From the NCBI RefSeq assembly GCF_017348835.2, contig NZ_CP071375.1: a DNA stretch of 64,000 nt. One strand, written 5' to 3'. This document shows, in pieces, positions 1,377-29,651 of the stretch. The position numbers and the translations under genes were made by a program. The stretch comes from Escherichia coli. Its GTDB lineage: Bacteria; Pseudomonadota; Gammaproteobacteria; Enterobacterales; Enterobacteriaceae. The notes below the pieces were generated by a model. That model was given only the letters and a program-made list of their open reading frames with translations, had not been told where the DNA came from and searched no databases. Positions within the stretch are counted from its first letter, which is position 1; each line of letters opens with the position of its first letter.

Positions 1377-1772
1377 TTATTCTGAGGCAAAGGCATAGCC
1401 TTCATCTTCCCAGCCGGTTATCCCGCCGAGCATGATTTTAACCGGCTTTCCGAGTCGAGCCAGTTTGAGTGCCGCACGGTCTGCACCGTTACAATGTGGC
1501 CCCGCGCAATACACCACAAATAGCGTATCGTCGGGCCATTCGGCCATTCTTTCTGCGGTCATTTGCTTATGGGGTAAATGGAGAGCGCCTGGGATATGCC
1601 GACGCGCGAAGTCCTCTTCACGTCCAACCACATGAAGTAAAACGAAATCATCGCCAATATAAGCCAGAGAGTCATGAACATCGGCGCAATCTGTTTCGAC
1701 ACTCAAGCGCGCGAGAAAATGCGCCTCAGCAACTTCTGGCTTCGCTGTGGTAAATTCAGTGACATAACGCAT
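1377..1772 (-). CDS. Rhodanese-domain sulfurtransferase-like protein
   Basis: 131 aa ORF with rhodanese-like motifs including an active-site Cys context (VVYCAGPHCNGA). Confidence 0.65.
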   Translation of the reverse strand: MRYVTEFTTAKPEVAEAHFLARLSVETDCADVHDSLAYIGDDFVLLHVVGREEDFARRHIPGALHLPHKQMTAERMAEWPDDTLFVVYCAGPHCNGADRAALKLARLGKPVKIMLGGITGWEDEGYAFASE

Positions 1773-1845
1773 ATTGCTTTGTCCTTTTGGTTTGTTGTGT
1801 TAACAATAATGTAACTAATCTACCTTTCACTGACCGCCTCTCGAT

Positions 1846-2838
1846 ATGCCAGAAATGAGCAAAATGATGACAACGTTACAACGTCCGCTGGTCATTGCAC
1901 TGGCATATGACGGGCTATGTACTTTTGAATTTGGCGTTGCCGTTGAAATATTCGGCCTGCCACGACCGGAACTGGGCGATAATTGGTATCGTTTTGCTGT
2001 TGCTGCGGTAGAACCTGGTGCGCTACAAGCCACCGGGGGGATCCACGTGGTTGCAGATGGTGGACTGGAGTTATTGCCCAACGCCGATATGATTATTATT
2101 CCTGGCTGGCGCGGAATAGATGCCAAAGTGCCGGAGATGCTATGCCAGTCATTGCGCGAGGCACACCAGCGCGGTACTCGCCTGGTATCAATATGCTCTG
2201 GCGTGTTTGTCCTTGCTGCTGCGGGCCTTCTTCATCAGCGAAAAGCAACCACCCACTGGCGCTACACTGAACAACTCCAGCACCGTTACCCTTCAATCAG
2301 CGTAAGTGACAATGTGTTATATCAGGATGAAGGACAAGTGATGACCTCCGCCGGAAGCGCCGCGGGGATCGATCTGTGTTTACATATCGTGCGCAAAGAT
2401 TTTGGTCATGAGATTGCTAATAATGTCGCCCGGCGACTGGTCATTCAGCCACATCGCCAGGGGGATCAACCACAAAATCTGACGCGCCCAATGGCCTCAC
2501 CGCGTGAAAGCCAGACGTTAGGTGCCTTATTCGACTTTTTGCAGCAGAATCTGGCACAAACACATACTGTGTCTTCCCTCGCCGAACGGGTAAATATGAG
2601 TCCGCGCACTTTTTTAAGACGTTTTGAGGCGTTAACTGGCATGACGCCCGCCCGCTGGCTGCTCAATGAGCGCTTAATACGAGTACAGGATTATCTGCAA
2701 AATTCGGTTTTTAACATCGAGAAAATTGCCGAGCTGACGGGTTTTGGCAATTCAGCGTTATTGCGTCATCACTTTCACCAACGTTTTTTATTATCTCCTT
2801 CGCAATATCGCAAAAACAGCCGTTCCCCATCACAATAA
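1846..2838 (+). CDS. GlxA-type transcriptional regulator (DJ-1/PfpI N-domain + AraC-type HTH C-domain)
   Basis: 330 aa ORF; N-terminal DJ-1/PfpI-like region (ICSGVFVLAAAGLL) and C-terminal AraC-type HTH. Confidence 0.65.
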   Translation: MPEMSKMMTTLQRPLVIALAYDGLCTFEFGVAVEIFGLPRPELGDNWYRFAVAAVEPGALQATGGIHVVADGGLELLPNADMIIIPGWRGIDAKVPEMLCQSLREAHQRGTRLVSICSGVFVLAAAGLLHQRKATTHWRYTEQLQHRYPSISVSDNVLYQDEGQVMTSAGSAAGIDLCLHIVRKDFGHEIANNVARRLVIQPHRQGDQPQNLTRPMASPRESQTLGALFDFLQQNLAQTHTVSSLAERVNMSPRTFLRRFEALTGMTPARWLLNERLIRVQDYLQNSVFNIEKIAELTGFGNSALLRHHFHQRFLLSPSQYRKNSRSPSQ

Positions 2839-2945: not shown

Positions 2946-3041
2946 ATGCTGGGTAATATGAATGTTTTTATGGCCGTACTGGGAATAATTTTATTTTCTG
3001 GTTTTCTGGCCGCGTATTTCAGCCACAAATGGGATGACTAA
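2946..3041 (+). CDS. mgtS: Small membrane protein MgtS (31 aa)
   Basis: Translation MLGNMNVFMAVLGIILFSGFLAAYFSHKWDD; below the 60 aa cut-off of the ORF track. Confidence 0.85.
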   Translation: MLGNMNVFMAVLGIILFSGFLAAYFSHKWDD

Positions 3042-3068
3042 TGAACGGAGATAATCCCTCACCTAACC

Positions 3069-3108
3069 GGCCCCTTGTTACAGTTGTGTACAAGGGGCCT
3101 GATTTTTA
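3069..3108 (+). terminator. Rho-independent terminator after mgtS
   Basis: 10 bp perfect stem (ggccccttgt / acaaggggcc) followed by a T-run. Confidence 0.7.
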
Positions 3109-3116
3109 TGACGGCG

Positions 3117-3230
3117 AAAAAAAACCGCCAGTAAACCGGCGGTGAATGCTTGCATGGATAGATTTGTGTTTTGCTTTTACGCTAACAGGCATTTTCCTGC
3201 ACTGATAACGGATCGTTGACACAGTAGCAT
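3117..3230 (-). ncRNA. mgrR: Candidate MgrR-like PhoP-regulated sRNA (ends approximate)
   Basis: Minus-strand hairpin plus U7 terminator at 3117-3143 and PhoP-box-like repeat at 3250-3266; exact MgrR sequence not recalled. Confidence 0.4.
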
Positions 3231-3249
3231 CAGTTTTCTCAATGAATGT

Positions 3250-14612: not shown

Positions 14613-15188
14613 CTACGGCAGTGCTGGCCATTCAATATCCTGTGCAGTTGACGTATCAACACGGTTCAGCAATACCCGATACTTTTTCCATGCTTCCAGC
14701 AACGAGATTTCTTCCTCCGTTGCAATTTCCAGATCTGCAGCATCCTGAAGCGGCGCAATATGCTCACTGGCTACCTGCATCAGGCTGTTTTTTGTTTCTT
14801 CCGCCTCCCGGATCCGGAACAGTTTTTCTGCTTCCGTATCCTTCACCCAGGCTGTGCCGTTCCACTTCTGATATTCCCCTCCCGGCGATAACCAGGTAAC
14901 ATTTTCCGGTAACGGACCGAGTTCAGAAATAAATAACGCGTCGCCGGAAGCCACGTCATAAACCGTTTTACCCCGATGATCTTCAACGAGATGCCACGAT
15001 GCCTCATCACTGTTGAAAACAGCCACGAAGCCTGCCGGAATATCTGGCGGTGCAATATCGATACTGTTTGCTGGCAGACCTGTATGAGGCGGAATATATG
15101 CGTCACCTTCACCAATAAATTCATTAGTTCCGGCCAGCAGATTATAAATTTTTATGGTCCGTGGTTGTTCACTCATTCTGAATGCCAT
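14613..15188 (-). CDS. tfaQ: Tail fibre assembly protein
   Basis: 191 aa; adjacent to tail-fibre C-terminal module. Confidence 0.75.
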
Positions 15189-20020: not shown

Positions 20021-21050
<1,030 letters not shown>

Positions 21051-21371
21051 GGATATTTATCAGGATTTATCGGCTTCAAATCCCCGGATATGTTAAATCT
21101 TACCTCACCAGTGATGGGCACTGGCGGGAGGAGGATGTCAATCTGATAAACACAGAGGTGACTATGGATTACACAAATCTACCAAAACAAACTTTTGCTG
21201 ATTTAATCGCACTCAGGCAAGCAGTCGTAGCTCTAATCAACTTGTTGCCGGAGAAGGAAAAGGAATTAGTTAAAGCGCTTCTTAACAGAACTGCCGCCGA
21301 TTTTTCATCATATCCACTGACAGATGACCTTGCGGACCTTCCTGAATTAATTGCAGCGTCCGCCATTAAGC

Positions 21372-21923
21372 TTACTGAAGAGATTTACCCTCCTCAAAAA
21401 TCTTCACAAAATTCCTGCGAGTAACTTCAATGCAATAATCGTAAAACGCCGCAAACTGCTCATCGCGGCGTTTTTTTTCATCTTCAGAAGGAATCAGCAC
21501 CGACAATTTTTTATTCAGATCAGCGACGCTGCCCTCCAGTTTTTCAATGGGCGATTCAATATCATCTTTTTCTGACCGCAATGCCGTCGGTGGCGTCTTC
21601 AGAGAACCAGTAATTCTTCCCGGTAGCTTTCCTTTGTAGGTTATCCACACATTCTGCGCCTCTAAAATTATGGGGCGCTTTTCCGGCGACTGCTCATCCC
21701 CTTCACATAACCCGGCAGCAACATCCAGGAAGACCTGTCTGATGCTCATTCTGGCTGCTGCCTCATAAAACTCCAGCGCGGCACCTTCAACACGGTCCAG
21801 CGAGATGTCCAGGTCAAAAATTTCACCGTCAAAGCGTTCTTTGTCCTGTAATGCTAAAGTTACCGTAACTTTATTCTCAAAATTGCGGATCCCTTTCACA
21901 ATCAGTTCATAGTTTTGAGTCAT
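21372..21923 (-). CDS. Prophage protein between holin and lysozyme (YdfR position; possibly DUF1327-like)
   Basis: 183 aa ORF; family assignment from memory only. Confidence 0.45.
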   Translation of the reverse strand: MTQNYELIVKGIRNFENKVTVTLALQDKERFDGEIFDLDISLDRVEGAALEFYEAAARMSIRQVFLDVAAGLCEGDEQSPEKRPIILEAQNVWITYKGKLPGRITGSLKTPPTALRSEKDDIESPIEKLEGSVADLNKKLSVLIPSEDEKKRRDEQFAAFYDYCIEVTRRNFVKIFEEGKSLQ

Positions 21924-21927
21924 TGAA

Positions 21928-22143
21928 TTACTCTCCTCTCGCAGCCTTACGCCTGTCTTCTTTAATCTTGAAATAAAGATTTGTCAGATACGTCAGCAGG
22001 CCAAAAACCAGGCTACCCAGCACACCGATTGCAGCCCACTGTGACGGAGTTACTTTATCGAGTAACTGCAATGCCCAGAAACCAGCATTACCCGCCGATG
22101 TGCCATAGGCAACACCTGTTGTTAACTTATCCATTGATTTCAT
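21928..22143 (-). CDS. essQ: Holin
   Basis: 71 aa from MKSMDKL with TM segments; upstream of the lysozyme gene. Confidence 0.7.
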
Positions 22144-22363: not shown

Positions 22364-22534
22364 ATGTCAGAACGTAAAGACTCAAAATCACGCCGTAATT
22401 ATCTCGTTAAATGTTCCTGCCCAAACTGCACCCAAGAGTCAGAACACAGTTTTTCAAGAGTACAAAAAGGTGCCCTTTTGATCTGCCCTCATTGCAACAA
22501 AGTATTCCAGACAAATCTTAAAGCTGTAGCCTGA
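22364..22534 (+). CDS. Small zinc-ribbon protein (CxxC...CxxC)
   Basis: CPNCTQ...CPHCNK motifs; start uncertain. Confidence 0.35.
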   Translation: MSERKDSKSRRNYLVKCSCPNCTQESEHSFSRVQKGALLICPHCNKVFQTNLKAVA

Positions 22535-23788: not shown

Positions 23789-24493
23789 TTATCTCGTCAC
23801 CTTCCTCAATTGCGCTTCCGCGTATGCTTCTTCCTGCCAGCACTTTGTTACCAGTTTACCAATGACGTCAGCATACCCCTTATACCACTGATAATCGGTC
23901 AGGTCTGGTACCAGCTTCTGGACATGACGTCGTGCCAGCGTGGTCGGTAAACGACTAAACCGGTTTCCATTACAACGCCCACAAATCTTATATACCGGTA
24001 CGCCATGAAACCGGGTTCTTTTTTCATCCAGAACAATCCCTTTACCCTTACACCCTCTGCACGCTGTGCTGACTTCGCCCTTACCATGGCAATGCTGACA
24101 TAGTTCCTTTACCCATTCTTCCTTGATTACAGATTCCCCGCGTCTGTAGTGTTTCACCACTTCGCGCAATACATTATAAAATCCCGTACCTGAACAATGC
24201 TCACAGCGAGCCTTACTTGCCGCAGACCTAGAGTAATCAGCAAAGGCAAAATTCACGAGGTAAGGAATAATCTGTAACCGGATTTCTTCACTCAATTTGT
24301 TCAATGTCGGGTTATCCAGTGCCATCGCGTAATTTAGCAGGCCTTCAATCGCAAACTGAGGGTCCTGAACACCAACTTTTGCCAGAAATAAGGCCAACCC
24401 AAGTGGTGCTTTCGACTGCACCATCCCCTGCGCTGCCATTACATCCGTAATTGTTAAACAACCGGTGCCTGTCGCTGGAGCGTCATCGCTCAA
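23789..24493 (-). CDS. quuQ: Q-like late-gene antiterminator
   Basis: 234 aa with Cys-rich zinc-finger region (CEHCSGTG...CQHCHGKG...CRGCKGKG). Confidence 0.75.
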
Positions 24494-24555: not shown

Positions 24556-25443
24556 TCAGGCTGCCAGATCATTATTTCCGATGGAAGCATAATAAGCTTT
24601 TTCTGCTTCTGCCGGAGGAATATGGCCCAGCCTTTCCAGCAATCGTCGATTGTTATACCAGTCCACCCACGTTAGTGTGGCCAGTTCCACTTCTGTCCGG
24701 TTTTTCCAGCTCTTACGGTGTATTACCTCCGCTTTGTAAAGACCATTGATGCTCTCAGCCATCGCGTTGTCATACGAGTCGCCAGTACTCCCTGTTGATG
24801 CCAGTAATCCGGCTTCCTTAAGCCGCTGCGTGTAGGCCAGCGATACATACTGAGAACCTTTATCACTGTGATGGATTGTGCCGGACGGCCGACGGGCCCA
24901 CAACGCCTGCTCCAGTGCATCCAGCACGAATGTTGTTTCCATGGATGATGAGACCTGCCATCCCACGATGTATCCGGCGAACACATCAATGATGAACGCC
25001 ACATAAACGAAGCCCTGCCATGTGCTTACCCAGGTAAAATCAGCCACCCACAACTGGTCTGGACGTTCTGCCACGAACTGACGGTTTACGCGGTCGCATG
25101 CGGCAACGGCTTTCCGGCTGACGGTAGTGCGGACCTTTTTACCCCGGAGAACACCGGCAAGTCCCATAACTGCCATGAGACGTGCCACAGTGCATCTGGC
25201 CACTCTGATACCTTCCCGTAACAACTGACGCCAGACTTTACGCACACCGTATACCTGGTGATTTTCATCGTATACGCGCTGTATCTCTTTCTTCAGCCAG
25301 TCATCGTGCTGCGCACGGGCACTGCGTTTATCCGGATGATGTCGCTGTTGCTGACAATGGTAATACGTTGACGGGGCAATATGCAGTTCGCTGCATACCG
25401 GTCCGACCCCGTACTGCTCACGCAGCTTATCCAGCAGTGGCAT
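24556..25443 (-). CDS. IS3-family transposase OrfB (DDE catalytic domain)
   Basis: 295 aa integrase-core ORF. Confidence 0.85.
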   Translation of the reverse strand: MPLLDKLREQYGVGPVCSELHIAPSTYYHCQQQRHHPDKRSARAQHDDWLKKEIQRVYDENHQVYGVRKVWRQLLREGIRVARCTVARLMAVMGLAGVLRGKKVRTTVSRKAVAACDRVNRQFVAERPDQLWVADFTWVSTWQGFVYVAFIIDVFAGYIVGWQVSSSMETTFVLDALEQALWARRPSGTIHHSDKGSQYVSLAYTQRLKEAGLLASTGSTGDSYDNAMAESINGLYKAEVIHRKSWKNRTEVELATLTWVDWYNNRRLLERLGHIPPAEAEKAYYASIGNNDLAA

Positions 25444-25769
25444 TATTTTTTCCAGAGGCGGTCGAACTCCGCCTTCGCAAAATAAGCGGAAGCCTGGCGA
25501 AGGATATCGTTACTGCGGCGCAGTTCACGATTTTCACGTTCCAGCTCTTTCAGACGCTGACGTTCAGCGGTGGTGAGTCCACCATCACCACTCCCGGTAT
25601 CCCGCTCATGCTGGCGAACCCAGACACGCAGAGTCTCCGGCGTACAGCCAATCTTTGGGGCAATGGAACAAATTGCCGCCCACTGTGAGTCATATTCATC
25701 CTGACTTTCCAGAACCATACGAATCGCCCGCTGACGGACTTCGGGGGAAAAACGAGTATTTTTAGTCAT
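25443..25769 (-). CDS. IS3-family transposase OrfA (HTH + leucine zipper)
   Basis: 108 aa, [33 protein letters not shown]... Confidence 0.85.
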
Positions 25770-27985: not shown

Positions 27986-29651
27986 GAAAAATCCCCCAGA
28001 GAATTGTCTGGGGACATTTTAGAATGGTTCAAAGGGGACATTACAGCTTGGTGTTAACAATAGCCTGCTTCTCCTTGCCTTTCGGCACGTAAGAGGCTAA
28101 CCTACATGTGTCTGGCATGAAATTGGCCTCAGATTAATGTTAAGCGTCTTGCAGGACGCGTAATGTTAACTGGGGCTTTTCTCTACCTGCCGTTGGTGTT
28201 CGTGCCCGAGGCAGATAGCCTCAAGCACCCGCAGTCATTCTACTTAACTAAGATTTCCCCGCAAACCGTTTTTGTCCAGCACAGTAAATATCCAACTAAA
28301 CCAATGGAGTTCGCTGTATTTACCGCCAGTATTCAATGCACATGACCGCCATGAACACCCCTAAAAAAAGGGCATTTATATATCCAAATATTAATATCAA
28401 AACATCAACTTTTTCCATATACCTTGCTGTGAAGATGATGGGCATACATGATGCGAACAACCAGAACGCAACAAACAAAAACTGCAATGCGTTTTTCATT
28501 ATTCCTCCTACAATCAATGTGCAATTACATTTAAACACACCTCAATTTGGCCGGACATATAAATATCTAAACCAGAAAAAATCACTTACATAGCGTTACA
28601 AACTCTTTAGTCTAAAGGTTCATCGTAAAACATTCCCCATACTTATCAGTCCGTTCCGCGCCAGGTAGCTCATTGCCTTATCTGGCAACCTGTAATCAGG
28701 TTTCCGCTTTTTCAGTTGGCTGGTCGTTTAACCGACATAGTTAACCCATTAATCTAGTTGCCGGATGTTGGTGGATTTTCGCGTTTTAGTTGTTCATAAA
28801 AGTGCACAGCTTTAACCAATTCTTCTGATGTAACCGGGACTGGTGAGGCAGTGAATAAGGCCTGAATTTGATAGTTCGGCCTGTCGTTACAATCCTCTTT
28901 TTTCGGTACATATTTCCAGTCACCAGACCACTACTTCCCCTGAAAGTCCGTAACGCCTTTTTTCACGTAGCGATATCGCCATGTCACTGGTTTTGCTTGC
29001 CCCGCCGTTTCATGCCCTTCCTGATAATTAATCTCGCTCATTCATCGCCCCACTCATCACAATATGCTTCGACCGGAGTTTTTCCCGCTTCATAGTCATC
29101 ACGCTAGGATTCGACATCAGCAGCACTTCCACCGCGTAACTCACCATAGTCCATTAATAGTTCATCCCGCTCTTCAAAACTGATGTTATATTTAGCTGAA
29201 CAAAAATCAGCCACTTTGTTCTTCCTCATCGTCTTTTATTTCGTGGTATGAGTAATTGCAGTAGTTAAAGAAAATTTCTTATGCTCCGTCATGAATTTCA
29301 TCAGGTGTTGCGTCATCGTCCACTTCGAATACATCCTCAAAATCTCCACCAGCTATTCCCGTTTCAATAATAATTTTGAACTTTCGCATTTCACTACCGC
29401 CCTTTCGGGCGGCCTCCTGATGTTCTGAGGGTGCAGAAATCCATCCGGTTAAGGATTAAGTTTTATTTACAGAACTGAATTTAATTATTCAGATATACGT
29501 ATCTGTAACCTTACGAATCTACTCACTGGATGCCTCTTTCATAAAAATAATCCAGTGGGTTTTATCGTTTTTTCCCTGTTCGTTGACAGATAACAGGCTT
29601 TCTATCTGTCAGTGCCAGAATCTGGCTTACCGGTATTTGCGTTTCATTCCA

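What the first reader, a model, noticed from the sequence alone, without database searches (positions are those of the whole stretch)
21158..21923. Extra ORF between holin and lysozyme, longer than the K-12 counterpart as recalled
A 183 codon ORF lies between essQ and the lysozyme gene; the K-12 gene at this position (ydfR) is recalled as about 103 aa. This may be the full-length ancestral form of a moron. An 88 codon antisense ORF (21158-21424) partly overlaps it.
Basis: partly seen in the sequence, partly recalled or inferred. Interest (0 to 1): 0.25.

Follow-up and report, generated by a model that had tools for sequence, protein, structure and literature searches.

The report
Long YdfR gene in prophage lysis cassette
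The 183-codon gene between the holin and lysozyme genes is an intact, already catalogued long version of the prophage protein YdfR, whose function is still unknown; the shorter E. coli K-12 copy is a deletion-shortened relative of a different long version, so the finding is real but ordinary.

Summary
A 183-codon ORF (21372-21923, minus strand) lies 4 nt after a phage-21-type holin gene and 321 nt before a lysozyme gene. An 88-codon ORF on the other strand (21158-21424; more likely 86 codons from ATG 21164) overlaps its 3' end by 53 nt. K-12 YdfR is 103 aa.

The ORF is a YdfR/DUF1327 protein (Pfam E 4e-42). It matches PHROG 2091 end to end, and the exact protein is already on 379 public contigs. 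It is a mosaic of three parts:
- an N-terminal core (aa 1-~72), the only part shared with K-12 YdfR;
- a linker (aa ~73-112);
- a two-helix C-terminal module (aa 113-183), which also occurs on its own next to holin genes in Stx2a phages.

K-12 ydfR is indeed shortened, by a 360-bp deletion that makes it read into the lysozyme leader. But that deletion is relative to other long alleles (174 and 206 aa), not this one. "Full-length" is fair; "ancestral form of the K-12 gene" and "moron" are not supported.

The opposite-strand ORF is a real conserved gene (PHROG 2572). A 38%-identical homologue sits at the same position in another cassette (dN/dS 0.34).

Function is unknown. The only experimental lead is that K-12 YdfR residues 1-72 bind the RNase E catalytic half. 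Interest is low.

The parts
21372..21923 (-). Long-form YdfR-family gene, 183 aa, intact
   Evidence: One search lists the ORF. Pfam DUF1327 E 4e-42. PHROG 2091 matched 1-183/183, E 1e-110. The exact protein is on 379 public contigs as 'YdfR family protein'. It is 173/183 identical to gp52 of phage 2H10.
21708..21923 (-). N-terminal core (aa 1-~72). This is the only part shared with K-12 YdfR and corresponds to the region of K-12 YdfR reported to bind RNase E.
   Evidence: DNA similarity to K-12 (95.5%) ends at window 21718. The proteins are 61/74 identical. The AF2 model gives three strands plus a helix at pLDDT 65-84. dN/dS is 0.20-0.25 against divergent alleles. PMC13232886 reports that residues 1-72 of K-12 YdfR suffice for the interaction.
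21588..21707 (-). Linker module B (aa ~73-112). Shared with the 114/116-aa alleles and predicted disordered.
   Evidence: Similarity to the 114-aa allele (L003) ends at window 21587. The alignment is A1. pLDDT is below 50 for residues 75-122.
21372..21587 (-). C-terminal extension (aa 113-183): a coiled-coil helix plus a second helix carrying the DEQFAAFYDYC motif. This is a portable module.
   Evidence: Helices at 123-143 and 147-182. In-frame indels keep the module in the 171-, 176-, 180- and 211-aa alleles. It occurs without DUF1327 directly after the holin in an Stx2a phage (L008 1544-2185) and in P0178, and behind a different N-terminus in P0152. dN/dS is 0.39-0.89.
21164..21424 (+). Convergent small gene, 86 aa from ATG 21164 (88 aa from GTG 21158). 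Acidic and helical, function unknown.
   Evidence: PGAP CDS WP_001306174.1 in an identical strain. PHROG 2572 matched 1-86/86, E 1e-53. On at least 1000 contigs. A 38%-identical homologue sits at the same position in another cassette, BLASTP E 3e-17, with dN/dS 0.34 and second codon positions changed least. GAGG lies 5 nt upstream of the ATG.
21443..21482 (.). GC-rich hairpin followed by T8 on the + strand, about 20 nt after the stop of the small gene and inside the 183-aa coding sequence (codons KKRRDEQFAAF). Terminator-like in both directions.
   Evidence: + strand -15.4 kcal/mol, z -3.2, 10-bp stem then U8; - strand -22.1 kcal/mol, z -4.15. The consensus scan did not report it because the loop is 12 nt. 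It is degraded in the Stx2a copy (L008, z +0.39).
21928..22143 (-). Class II (phage-21-type) holin gene essQ/essD, immediately upstream of the 183-aa ORF
   Evidence: Pfam PF04971 E 4e-34. PGAP assigns WP_000839590.1 both here and in K-12.
20515..21050 (-). Lysozyme gene rrrQ, inactivated by a 2-bp TA duplication near window 20719-20720
   Evidence: Split into ORFs 20619-21050 and 20515-20790. Both halves hit Phage_lysozyme. The alignment with intact copies shows the duplication. PGAP marks it 'frameshifted' in strain PE164.

Best explanation
The 552-nt ORF is an intact long allele of the YdfR (DUF1327) family, an accessory gene of the late lysis operon of Qin-like lambdoid prophages and phages. 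It sits directly behind the pinholin gene.

It is a recombination mosaic of three parts:
- an N-terminal beta3-alpha core (aa 1-~72);
- a disordered linker (aa ~73-112);
- a C-terminal two-helix coiled-coil module (aa 113-183), which moves between lysis-region genes as a unit.

K-12 YdfR shares only the core. Its own short length comes from a separate 360-bp deletion in a different long allele.

Mechanism, inferred rather than shown: the product is a soluble, acidic cytoplasmic protein (pI 4.9, no transmembrane segment) made together with the holin. Its core docks on the catalytic N-terminal half of host RNase E and perhaps on RNA, as reported for K-12 YdfR residues 1-72. The C-terminal coiled coil oligomerises it or recruits a second partner. 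It is dispensable for lysis itself.

The convergent 86-aa gene is a separate real gene of unknown function, and its terminator-like hairpin is embedded in the YdfR coding sequence.
For: Identity (shown):
- Pfam DUF1327 E 4e-42.
- PHROG 2091 matched end to end.
- The exact protein is on 379 contigs.
- The same 552-nt CDS is annotated in phages 2H10 and PhiR63_1, and related 169- and 211-aa forms occur in phages whose records name K-12 or E. coli C as host.
- The cassette is present at >=80% coverage in 280 of 5426 complete E. coli genomes.

Mosaic structure (shown):
- Breakpoints lie at window 21718 against K-12 and 21587 against the 114-aa allele.
- Alignment A1 shows alleles of 103 to 296 aa built from shared blocks.
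- The C-terminal module occurs alone and behind another N-terminus.

Translation of the extension (shown indirectly):
- Indels of 21 and 84 nt and a 12-residue gap in the 171-aa form all keep the frame.
- The protein motif is conserved at 72% DNA identity.

K-12 deletion (shown).

Operon membership (read from the sequence): 4-nt gap to the holin stop, with GAGGAG inside the end of the holin gene.

RNase E binding (literature, K-12 allele only): PMC13232886, by two-hybrid and pull-down, with residues 1-72 sufficient and RNA co-purifying.

Soluble and acidic.
Against: - No experiment addresses this allele. The RNase E interaction was shown only for the K-12 protein (82% identical over the core), and overproducing that protein changed few transcripts.
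- Selection on the extension looks weak (dN/dS 0.39-0.89 against 0.2 for the core).
- The model of the extension is only moderately confident (pLDDT 55-67), and the overall model is poor (mean 58).
- Fold and sequence searches against solved and viral structures gave nothing informative.
- PGAP annotates the long form as a pseudogene 'missing C-terminus'.
- In this window the prophage is decaying (lysozyme frameshift; IS3 next to the Q gene), so the gene may not be expressed here at all.
Confidence: 0.55

Rival explanations
1. Only the first ~112 codons are a functional YdfR. The 71-codon tail would be accidental read-through, created when recombination placed the small convergent gene and its terminator behind a YdfR gene that had lost its stop codon. 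On this view the 183-aa length has no biological meaning, which is in effect PGAP's 'pseudogene' reading.
For: - PGAP marks the long form 'incomplete; missing C-terminus' in several genomes.
- The 114/116-aa alleles end right after residue 112.
- The tail has high dN/dS (0.66-0.89 against L005, L008 and L009).
- The tail contains a hairpin that looks as if it belongs to the other strand's gene.
- In an Stx1a phage, the far end of a 263-aa YdfR ORF runs antisense through a 233-codon + strand ORF, so tails can be spurious.
Against: - The tail keeps its frame through independent in-frame indels in the 171-, 176-, 180- and 211-aa forms.
- It is conserved as protein at 72% DNA identity (dN/dS 0.39 against L007).
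- It starts its own ORF right after the holin in Stx2a phages (L008; P0178) and is fused to an unrelated N-terminus in P0152.
- PHROGs holds a 183-position family for it.
Confidence: 0.15
2. The protein, or at least its C-terminal two-helix module, is a cytoplasmic regulator of lysis timing. It would act on the pinholin or on the signal-anchored lysozyme, in the manner of small soluble lysis regulators such as T4 RIII, rather than on RNase E.
For: The evidence is position only. DUF1327 genes always follow a class II holin gene in the loci examined. The C-terminal module recurs next to holin genes in three different cassette types, including one with a holin_8 / holin_3_7 / GH108 set. The gene appears translationally coupled to the holin gene.
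Against: - No similarity to any known lysis regulator in Pfam, PHROGs, NCBIfam or solved structures.
- Phage 21 and lambda lyse without such a gene (established knowledge).
- Alleles lacking the module (103 and 114 aa) are far more common.
- The one experimental report points to RNase E (PMC13232886).
Confidence: 0.12
3. The long YdfR gene and the convergent 86-aa gene form a functional pair. The pair could be a two-protein module, or the overlapping 3' ends could give mutual antisense control, with the pair carried as cargo that benefits the lysogen.
For: The convergent arrangement, with 53-59 nt of 3' overlap, recurs with a 38%-identical small protein in a different cassette (L019). The small gene has its own Shine-Dalgarno sequence and a hairpin plus U8. 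Other cassettes carry different + strand ORFs at the same place (PHROG 2411, PHROG 1853).
Against: - No match to known defence or toxin-antitoxin families (PADLOC).
- The small gene pairs with YdfR tails that are not detectably related to each other.
- No consensus promoter was found for it.
- The small gene's start codon is lost in some genomes that keep the long YdfR (L013).
Confidence: 0.1

Closest known systems
E. coli K-12 YdfR (P76160, Qin prophage, 103 aa; Pfam DUF1327 / PF07041)
   Same: It has the same position between the same holin (identical protein accession) and rrrQ in the same Qin-like prophage. The N-terminal core is 61/74 identical (95.5% DNA identity). That core is the part reported to bind the RNase E catalytic half (PMC13232886).
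   Different: Nothing is alignable after about aa 74. K-12 has a different short middle block and then ends by reading into the lysozyme leader after a 360-bp deletion. It has no linker module B, no coiled-coil module and no convergent small gene; 92 nt in K-12 replace 657 nt here.
PHROG 2091, e.g. gp52 of Escherichia phage 2H10 (YP_009909759.1) and the YdfR-family CDS of phage PhiR63_1
   Same: Same length (183 aa), 173/183 identical, and the same flanking holin, small convergent ORF and lysozyme. The profile matches end to end.
   Different: There are only point differences, concentrated in the N-terminal core. In those phage records the lysozyme gene is intact, whereas here it is frameshifted.
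Long Stx-phage relatives (PHROG 1085, 296/287/268 aa; standalone 213/209-aa forms)
   Same: They share the coiled-coil / DEQFAAFYDYC module and the position directly after the holin gene.
   Different: They carry a further ~110-aa C-terminal block that is absent here. Some lack the DUF1327 core altogether.
Morons of lambdoid phages (a promoter-gene-terminator unit inserted between phage genes)
   Same: The segment between S and R is a variable insertion site that holds different cargo in different phages. The 86-aa + strand gene has its own ribosome-binding site and a terminator-like hairpin.
   Different: The 183-aa ORF itself is co-oriented and contiguous with the late operon and has no promoter of its own. 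A promoter for the small gene was not demonstrated.

Membership tests
YdfR / DUF1327 (Pfam PF07041) | Score above the Pfam gathering threshold | tested here: met
   142.8 bits against a cut-off of 25, E 4e-42, residues 1-112 on profile positions 1-92 of 93. The match after about residue 70 is to a K-12-like model and includes a ~20-residue insertion.
YdfR / DUF1327 (Pfam PF07041) | Gene lies directly downstream of a class II (phage-21-type) holin gene and upstream of the endolysin gene | tested here: met
   The holin gene (PF04971) ends 4 nt upstream and the lysozyme gene starts 321 nt downstream. The same order is seen in every related locus fetched.
YdfR / DUF1327 (Pfam PF07041) | N-terminal ~72 residues bind the RNase E N-terminal catalytic half (reported for K-12 YdfR) | not testable with these tools
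   Only sequence conservation of that region could be checked: 61/74 identical. The binding data are in PMC13232886.
PHROG 2091 (183-aa YdfR-like phage proteins, unknown function) | End-to-end profile match | tested here: met
   1-183 of 183, E 1.2e-110, 368 bits.
Moron (autonomous promoter-gene-terminator insertion) | Own promoter and terminator, transcribed independently of the flanking operon | tested here: not met
   This applies to the 183-aa ORF. It has the same orientation as the late operon, a 4-nt gap to the holin stop and no room for a promoter. The scan found only one weak - strand promoter-like site, and that lies inside the ORF.
Moron (autonomous promoter-gene-terminator insertion) | The same criteria applied to the 86-aa + strand gene | tested here: inconclusive
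   A terminator-like hairpin plus U8 is present and a Shine-Dalgarno sequence is present. No promoter passed the consensus scan. By eye there is only a weak TTTATC-N17-TATGTT, conserved in L019.
DUF1823 (label given to the 86-aa ORF in some phage records) | Score above the Pfam gathering threshold | tested here: not met
   13.2 bits against a cut-off of 25, E 0.11.
Core lysis proteins (holin, antiholin, endolysin, spanin) | Transmembrane segment, signal or lipobox, or a muralytic domain | tested here: not met
   The maximum 19-residue Kyte-Doolittle mean is 1.03. The only Pfam hit is DUF1327.
Known anti-phage defence systems (PADLOC-DB) | Match to any defence-system protein model | tested here: not met
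   No hit for the 183-aa protein, the 86-aa protein or their relatives.

The most novel reading that the evidence does not exclude
The C-terminal two-helix module (aa 113-183) is a portable, holin-adjacent cytoplasmic regulator that sets lysis timing. Alternatively, together with the convergent 86-aa gene, it forms a two-gene cargo unit exchanged among lysis cassettes. Either way the S-R gap of lambdoid phages would be a hotspot for a so far undescribed class of lysis or host-takeover accessory proteins linked to RNase E.
Probability: 0.1. Interest if true: 0.5.

Novelty: already known. Interest (0 to 1): 0.15.

Why it matters
It matters only modestly, in three ways.

1. Annotation. NCBI's pipeline calls this widespread long allele a pseudogene 'missing C-terminus', although phage records annotate it whole and evolution keeps its frame. 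Conversely, the reference K-12 YdfR, on which the Pfam model is centred, is itself a deletion product whose last four codons come from the lysozyme leader.

2. Follow-up of the RNase E report. Anyone pursuing the recent report that K-12 YdfR binds RNase E should know that natural alleles carry extra modules (coiled coil, ~110-aa domains). The K-12 protein lacks these, and they may hold the missing activity.

3. Recombination hotspot. The gap between the holin and lysozyme genes turns out to be a recombination hotspot. It carries a conserved convergent small gene that has no annotation beyond 'hypothetical'.

Tried and rejected
- **Codon-position counts against close relatives.** There were too few substitutions to decide coding status. 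The only hints were 10 of 15 changes at third positions for the + ORF and 4 of 5 for the extension, both against L010.
- **Structure prediction and fold searches.** The model was weak (mean pLDDT 58). Foldseek against the PDB and against viral models gave nothing below E 0.04, only generic curved beta-sheets and coiled coils.
- **Profile searches of PDB sequences.** Only coiled-coil noise (GCN4, tetherin).
- **NCBIfam and PADLOC.** No hits.
- **The 'DUF1823' label on the small ORF.** Rejected: 13 bits against a cut-off of 25.
- **Relatedness of other + strand ORFs at this position.** The ORFs in L003 and L008 show no similarity to the window's small ORF. Only the L019 ORF is related.
- **Relatedness of the window's C-terminal tail to the L019 174-aa tail.** Not significant: BLASTP found nothing and hhalign gave E 0.13.
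- **A weak hit of the core to a 3128-aa protein with G2F repeats (E 2e-6, six stretches).** Not pursued, and treated as uninformative.
- **Literature searches for ydfR, DUF1327 and essQ.** They yielded one relevant functional paper, PMC13232886.
- **The idea that K-12 ydfR is a nonsense or frameshift truncation of this allele.** Rejected, because the sequences are unrelated after about aa 74.

Full report
**What is in the sequence**

Window 19.4-24.5 kb is the late (lysis) region of a Qin-like lambdoid prophage, read on the minus strand. In order it contains:
- an antiterminator Q gene (23789-24493);
- cspB with its cspA-type leader;
- a phage-21-type class II holin gene (21928-22143, 71 aa);
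- a 183-codon ORF (21372-21923);
- a lysozyme gene starting at 21050;
- Rz and Rz1-like genes;
- cspI.

An 88-codon ORF on the plus strand (21158-21424) converges on the 183-codon ORF and overlaps it by 53 nt.

The 183-codon ORF starts 4 nt after the holin stop codon, with GAGGAG inside the last holin codons. It is thus part of the late operon and not a separate transcription unit.

**Identity**

The ORF is not a chance ORF.
- It hits Pfam DUF1327, the YdfR family, at E 4e-42.
- It matches PHROG 2091, a 183-position family of unknown function, end to end at E 1e-110.
- The exact protein is already on 379 public contigs under the name 'YdfR family protein'.
- The same 552-nt CDS is annotated whole in Escherichia phage 2H10 (gp52, 173/183 identical) and in phage PhiR63_1.
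- The DNA between the lysozyme gene and YdfR residue 112 (21095-21590) is present at >=80% coverage in 280 of 5426 complete E. coli genomes.
- NCBI's pipeline nevertheless labels the gene 'incomplete; missing C-terminus' and annotates only its first 336 nt in several genomes.

**Comparison with K-12**

In a K-12 derivative, ydfR is 103 aa and sits between the same holin (same protein accession) and rrrQ.

Similarity to the window is 95.5% at the DNA level, but it stops at window 21718. The proteins are 61/74 identical and nothing aligns after residue 74. In K-12, 92 nt take the place of 657 nt in the window.

K-12 is therefore not a nonsense or frameshift truncation of this allele.

It is shortened in another way, however. 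A 206-aa allele (metagenome contig L014, identical in E. coli LR-45) matches K-12 on both sides of a 360-bp segment that K-12 lacks. The last four K-12 codons (HKYL, then stop) are read from the conserved lysozyme leader ATAAATATCTATGA. A second allele of 174 aa (strain AR_0089) also continues past the K-12 breakpoint.

A deletion in the K-12 lineage is the more parsimonious reading, though this is an inference.

**A modular family**

Database relatives have lengths of 103, 112-116, 162-183, 196, 211, 268 and 296 aa. Aligned, they resolve into blocks:
- a core of about 70 residues, which exists in several allelic versions;
- a linker block (aa ~73-112 here), which is where the 114/116-aa alleles end;
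- a block of about 70 residues with a heptad-like helix and the motif DEQFAAFYDYC (aa 113-183 here);
- an optional 28-residue insert (the 211-aa form);
- an optional block of about 110 residues (the 268-296-aa forms, PHROG 1085).

The block corresponding to aa 113-183 also occurs without any DUF1327 core. It starts a 213-aa ORF right after the holin gene in an Stx2a phage, and it starts P0178. It also occurs behind an unrelated N-terminus in P0152, encoded upstream of a different holin/endolysin set.

The family is narrow: only 76 clusters at 50% identity among 1.84 billion representatives.

**Is the extension translated?**

Evidence for translation:
- Independent indels of 21 and 84 nt, and a 12-residue gap in the 171-aa form, all preserve the frame.
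- The protein motif survives at 72% DNA identity.
- The block is reused in other genes, as described above.

Evidence against, or weak:
- dN/dS is 0.39-0.89 for the extension, compared with 0.20-0.25 for the core. Synonymous change there may, however, be held down by the overlap and the hairpin.
- AlphaFold confidence is modest.
- In one Stx1a phage, the distal tail of a 263-aa YdfR ORF runs antisense through a 233-codon plus-strand ORF, so some tails in this family may be spurious.

On balance I take the 183-aa product to be real.

**The plus-strand ORF**

PGAP annotates it from ATG 21164 (86 aa, WP_001306174.1). It matches PHROG 2572 end to end, and the exact protein is on at least 1000 contigs.

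A word-based homology search found only close E. coli relatives. However, strain AR_0089 carries a 93-aa ORF at the same convergent position in a different cassette:
- It is 38% identical (BLASTP E 3e-17).
- Aligned-codon DNA identity is 57%.
- dN/dS is 0.34.
- Second codon positions changed least: 25, against 41 and 45 at positions 1 and 3, over 86 codons.

That pattern is what a protein-coding gene under purifying selection shows.

The 'DUF1823' label found in some phage records is not supported (13 bits against a cut-off of 25).

About 20 nt after its stop codon lies a 10-bp GC-rich hairpin followed by T8. The hairpin sits inside the YdfR coding sequence (codons KKRRDEQFAAF) and folds well on both strands (z -3.2 and -4.2). 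No consensus promoter was detected.

**Structure and function**

The model has three strands and a long helix for residues 1-74 (pLDDT 65-84), a disordered stretch at 75-122, and helices at 123-143 and 147-182 (pLDDT 55-67); the mean is 58.

Searches for related structures or families gave nothing informative:
- Fold searches against the PDB and viral models.
- Sequence-profile searches of the PDB, which returned only coiled-coil noise.
- NCBIfam and PADLOC, which have no match.

The protein is acidic (pI 4.9) and has no hydrophobic segment. It is therefore not a holin, antiholin, spanin or endolysin.

The only experimental lead is PMC13232886. That paper reports that:
- K-12 YdfR binds the catalytic N-terminal half of RNase E in two-hybrid and pull-down assays;
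- residues 1-72 are sufficient for the interaction;
- RNA co-purifies with the protein;
- overproduction has little effect on the transcriptome.

Residues 1-72 are exactly the block the window ORF shares with K-12.

My working mechanism is a late-expressed cytoplasmic protein that docks on RNase E or RNA through its core and is oligomerised, or given a second partner, by the C-terminal coiled coil. This is inferred, not shown. The rivals are a meaningless read-through tail, a lysis-timing regulator, and a functional pair with the small gene.

**State of this copy**

The prophage in the window is decaying. The lysozyme gene carries a 2-bp TA duplication. An IS3-family element, with its frameshift pseudoknot at 25372-25488, lies right next to the Q gene. 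Expression of the late operon here is doubtful.

**Verdict**

It is wrong in its specifics: this ORF is not the ancestor of the K-12 allele and not a moron.

The gene and its neighbour are already catalogued sequence families of unknown function. Interest is low.

Noticed in passing
window 20515-21050 (about 20719-20720): The lysozyme gene rrrQ carries a 2-bp TA duplication (CCCTATATAAC against CCCTATAAC in phage 2H10 and K-12). This splits it into two ORFs, so the endolysin of this prophage is inactivated.
   Followed up: yes
window 24556-25488, next to the Q gene at 23789-24493: An IS3-family element lies immediately upstream of the late antiterminator gene: a 295-aa ORF on the - strand, with an Rfam ALIL frameshift pseudoknot at 25372-25488. 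The longest Q ORF here is 234 aa from TTG, against 250 aa in K-12. The late operon may have lost its normal control.
   Followed up: partly
L002 2895-3000 (K-12 ydfR) against L014 914-1275: The reference K-12 YdfR (103 aa) appears to be a 360-bp deletion product. Its last four codons are read from the untranslated leader of the lysozyme gene. The Pfam DUF1327 model (93 positions) matches K-12 YdfR end to end (1-93 of 93), i.e. the shortened form.
   Followed up: yes
L001 3539-3874, L010 1988-2323, L013 1973-2308, L019 1238-1534: NCBI PGAP systematically labels the long YdfR alleles (174-183 aa) as pseudogenes 'missing C-terminus', although their reading frames are intact and phage records annotate them whole.
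   Followed up: partly
L007 1209-1910 (+) against 1659-2450 (-): In an Stx1a-converting phage, a 233-codon + strand ORF with a protein-like sequence and no family match overlaps about 250 nt of the annotated 263-aa YdfR-like CDS. One of the two is probably mis-annotated.
   Followed up: no
window 21472-21479 (A8/T8 run inside the 183-aa ORF): The homopolymer that forms the U-tract of the hairpin is a slippage site. One database variant (P0077, 172 aa) changes frame exactly there (EDEKNTAMSS...).
   Followed up: no
window 22364-22534 (+): The small zinc-ribbon gene ynfU (Pfam YnfU, E 7e-31) lies between the holin gene and cspB, on the opposite strand.
   Followed up: no
P0194 (3128 aa; hit to residues 7-62 of the query): A giant protein with 14 G2F-domain repeats gave six weak matches (31% identity, E 2e-6) to the strand-rich YdfR core. 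This may hint at the fold, or it may be noise.
   Followed up: partly
window 3035-3248, 14647-14845, 28059-28230: Rfam matches elsewhere in the window: STnc560 sRNA, IS009, and the sok antitoxin RNA of the hok/sok locus. These are consistent with a Qin-like prophage neighbourhood.
   Followed up: no
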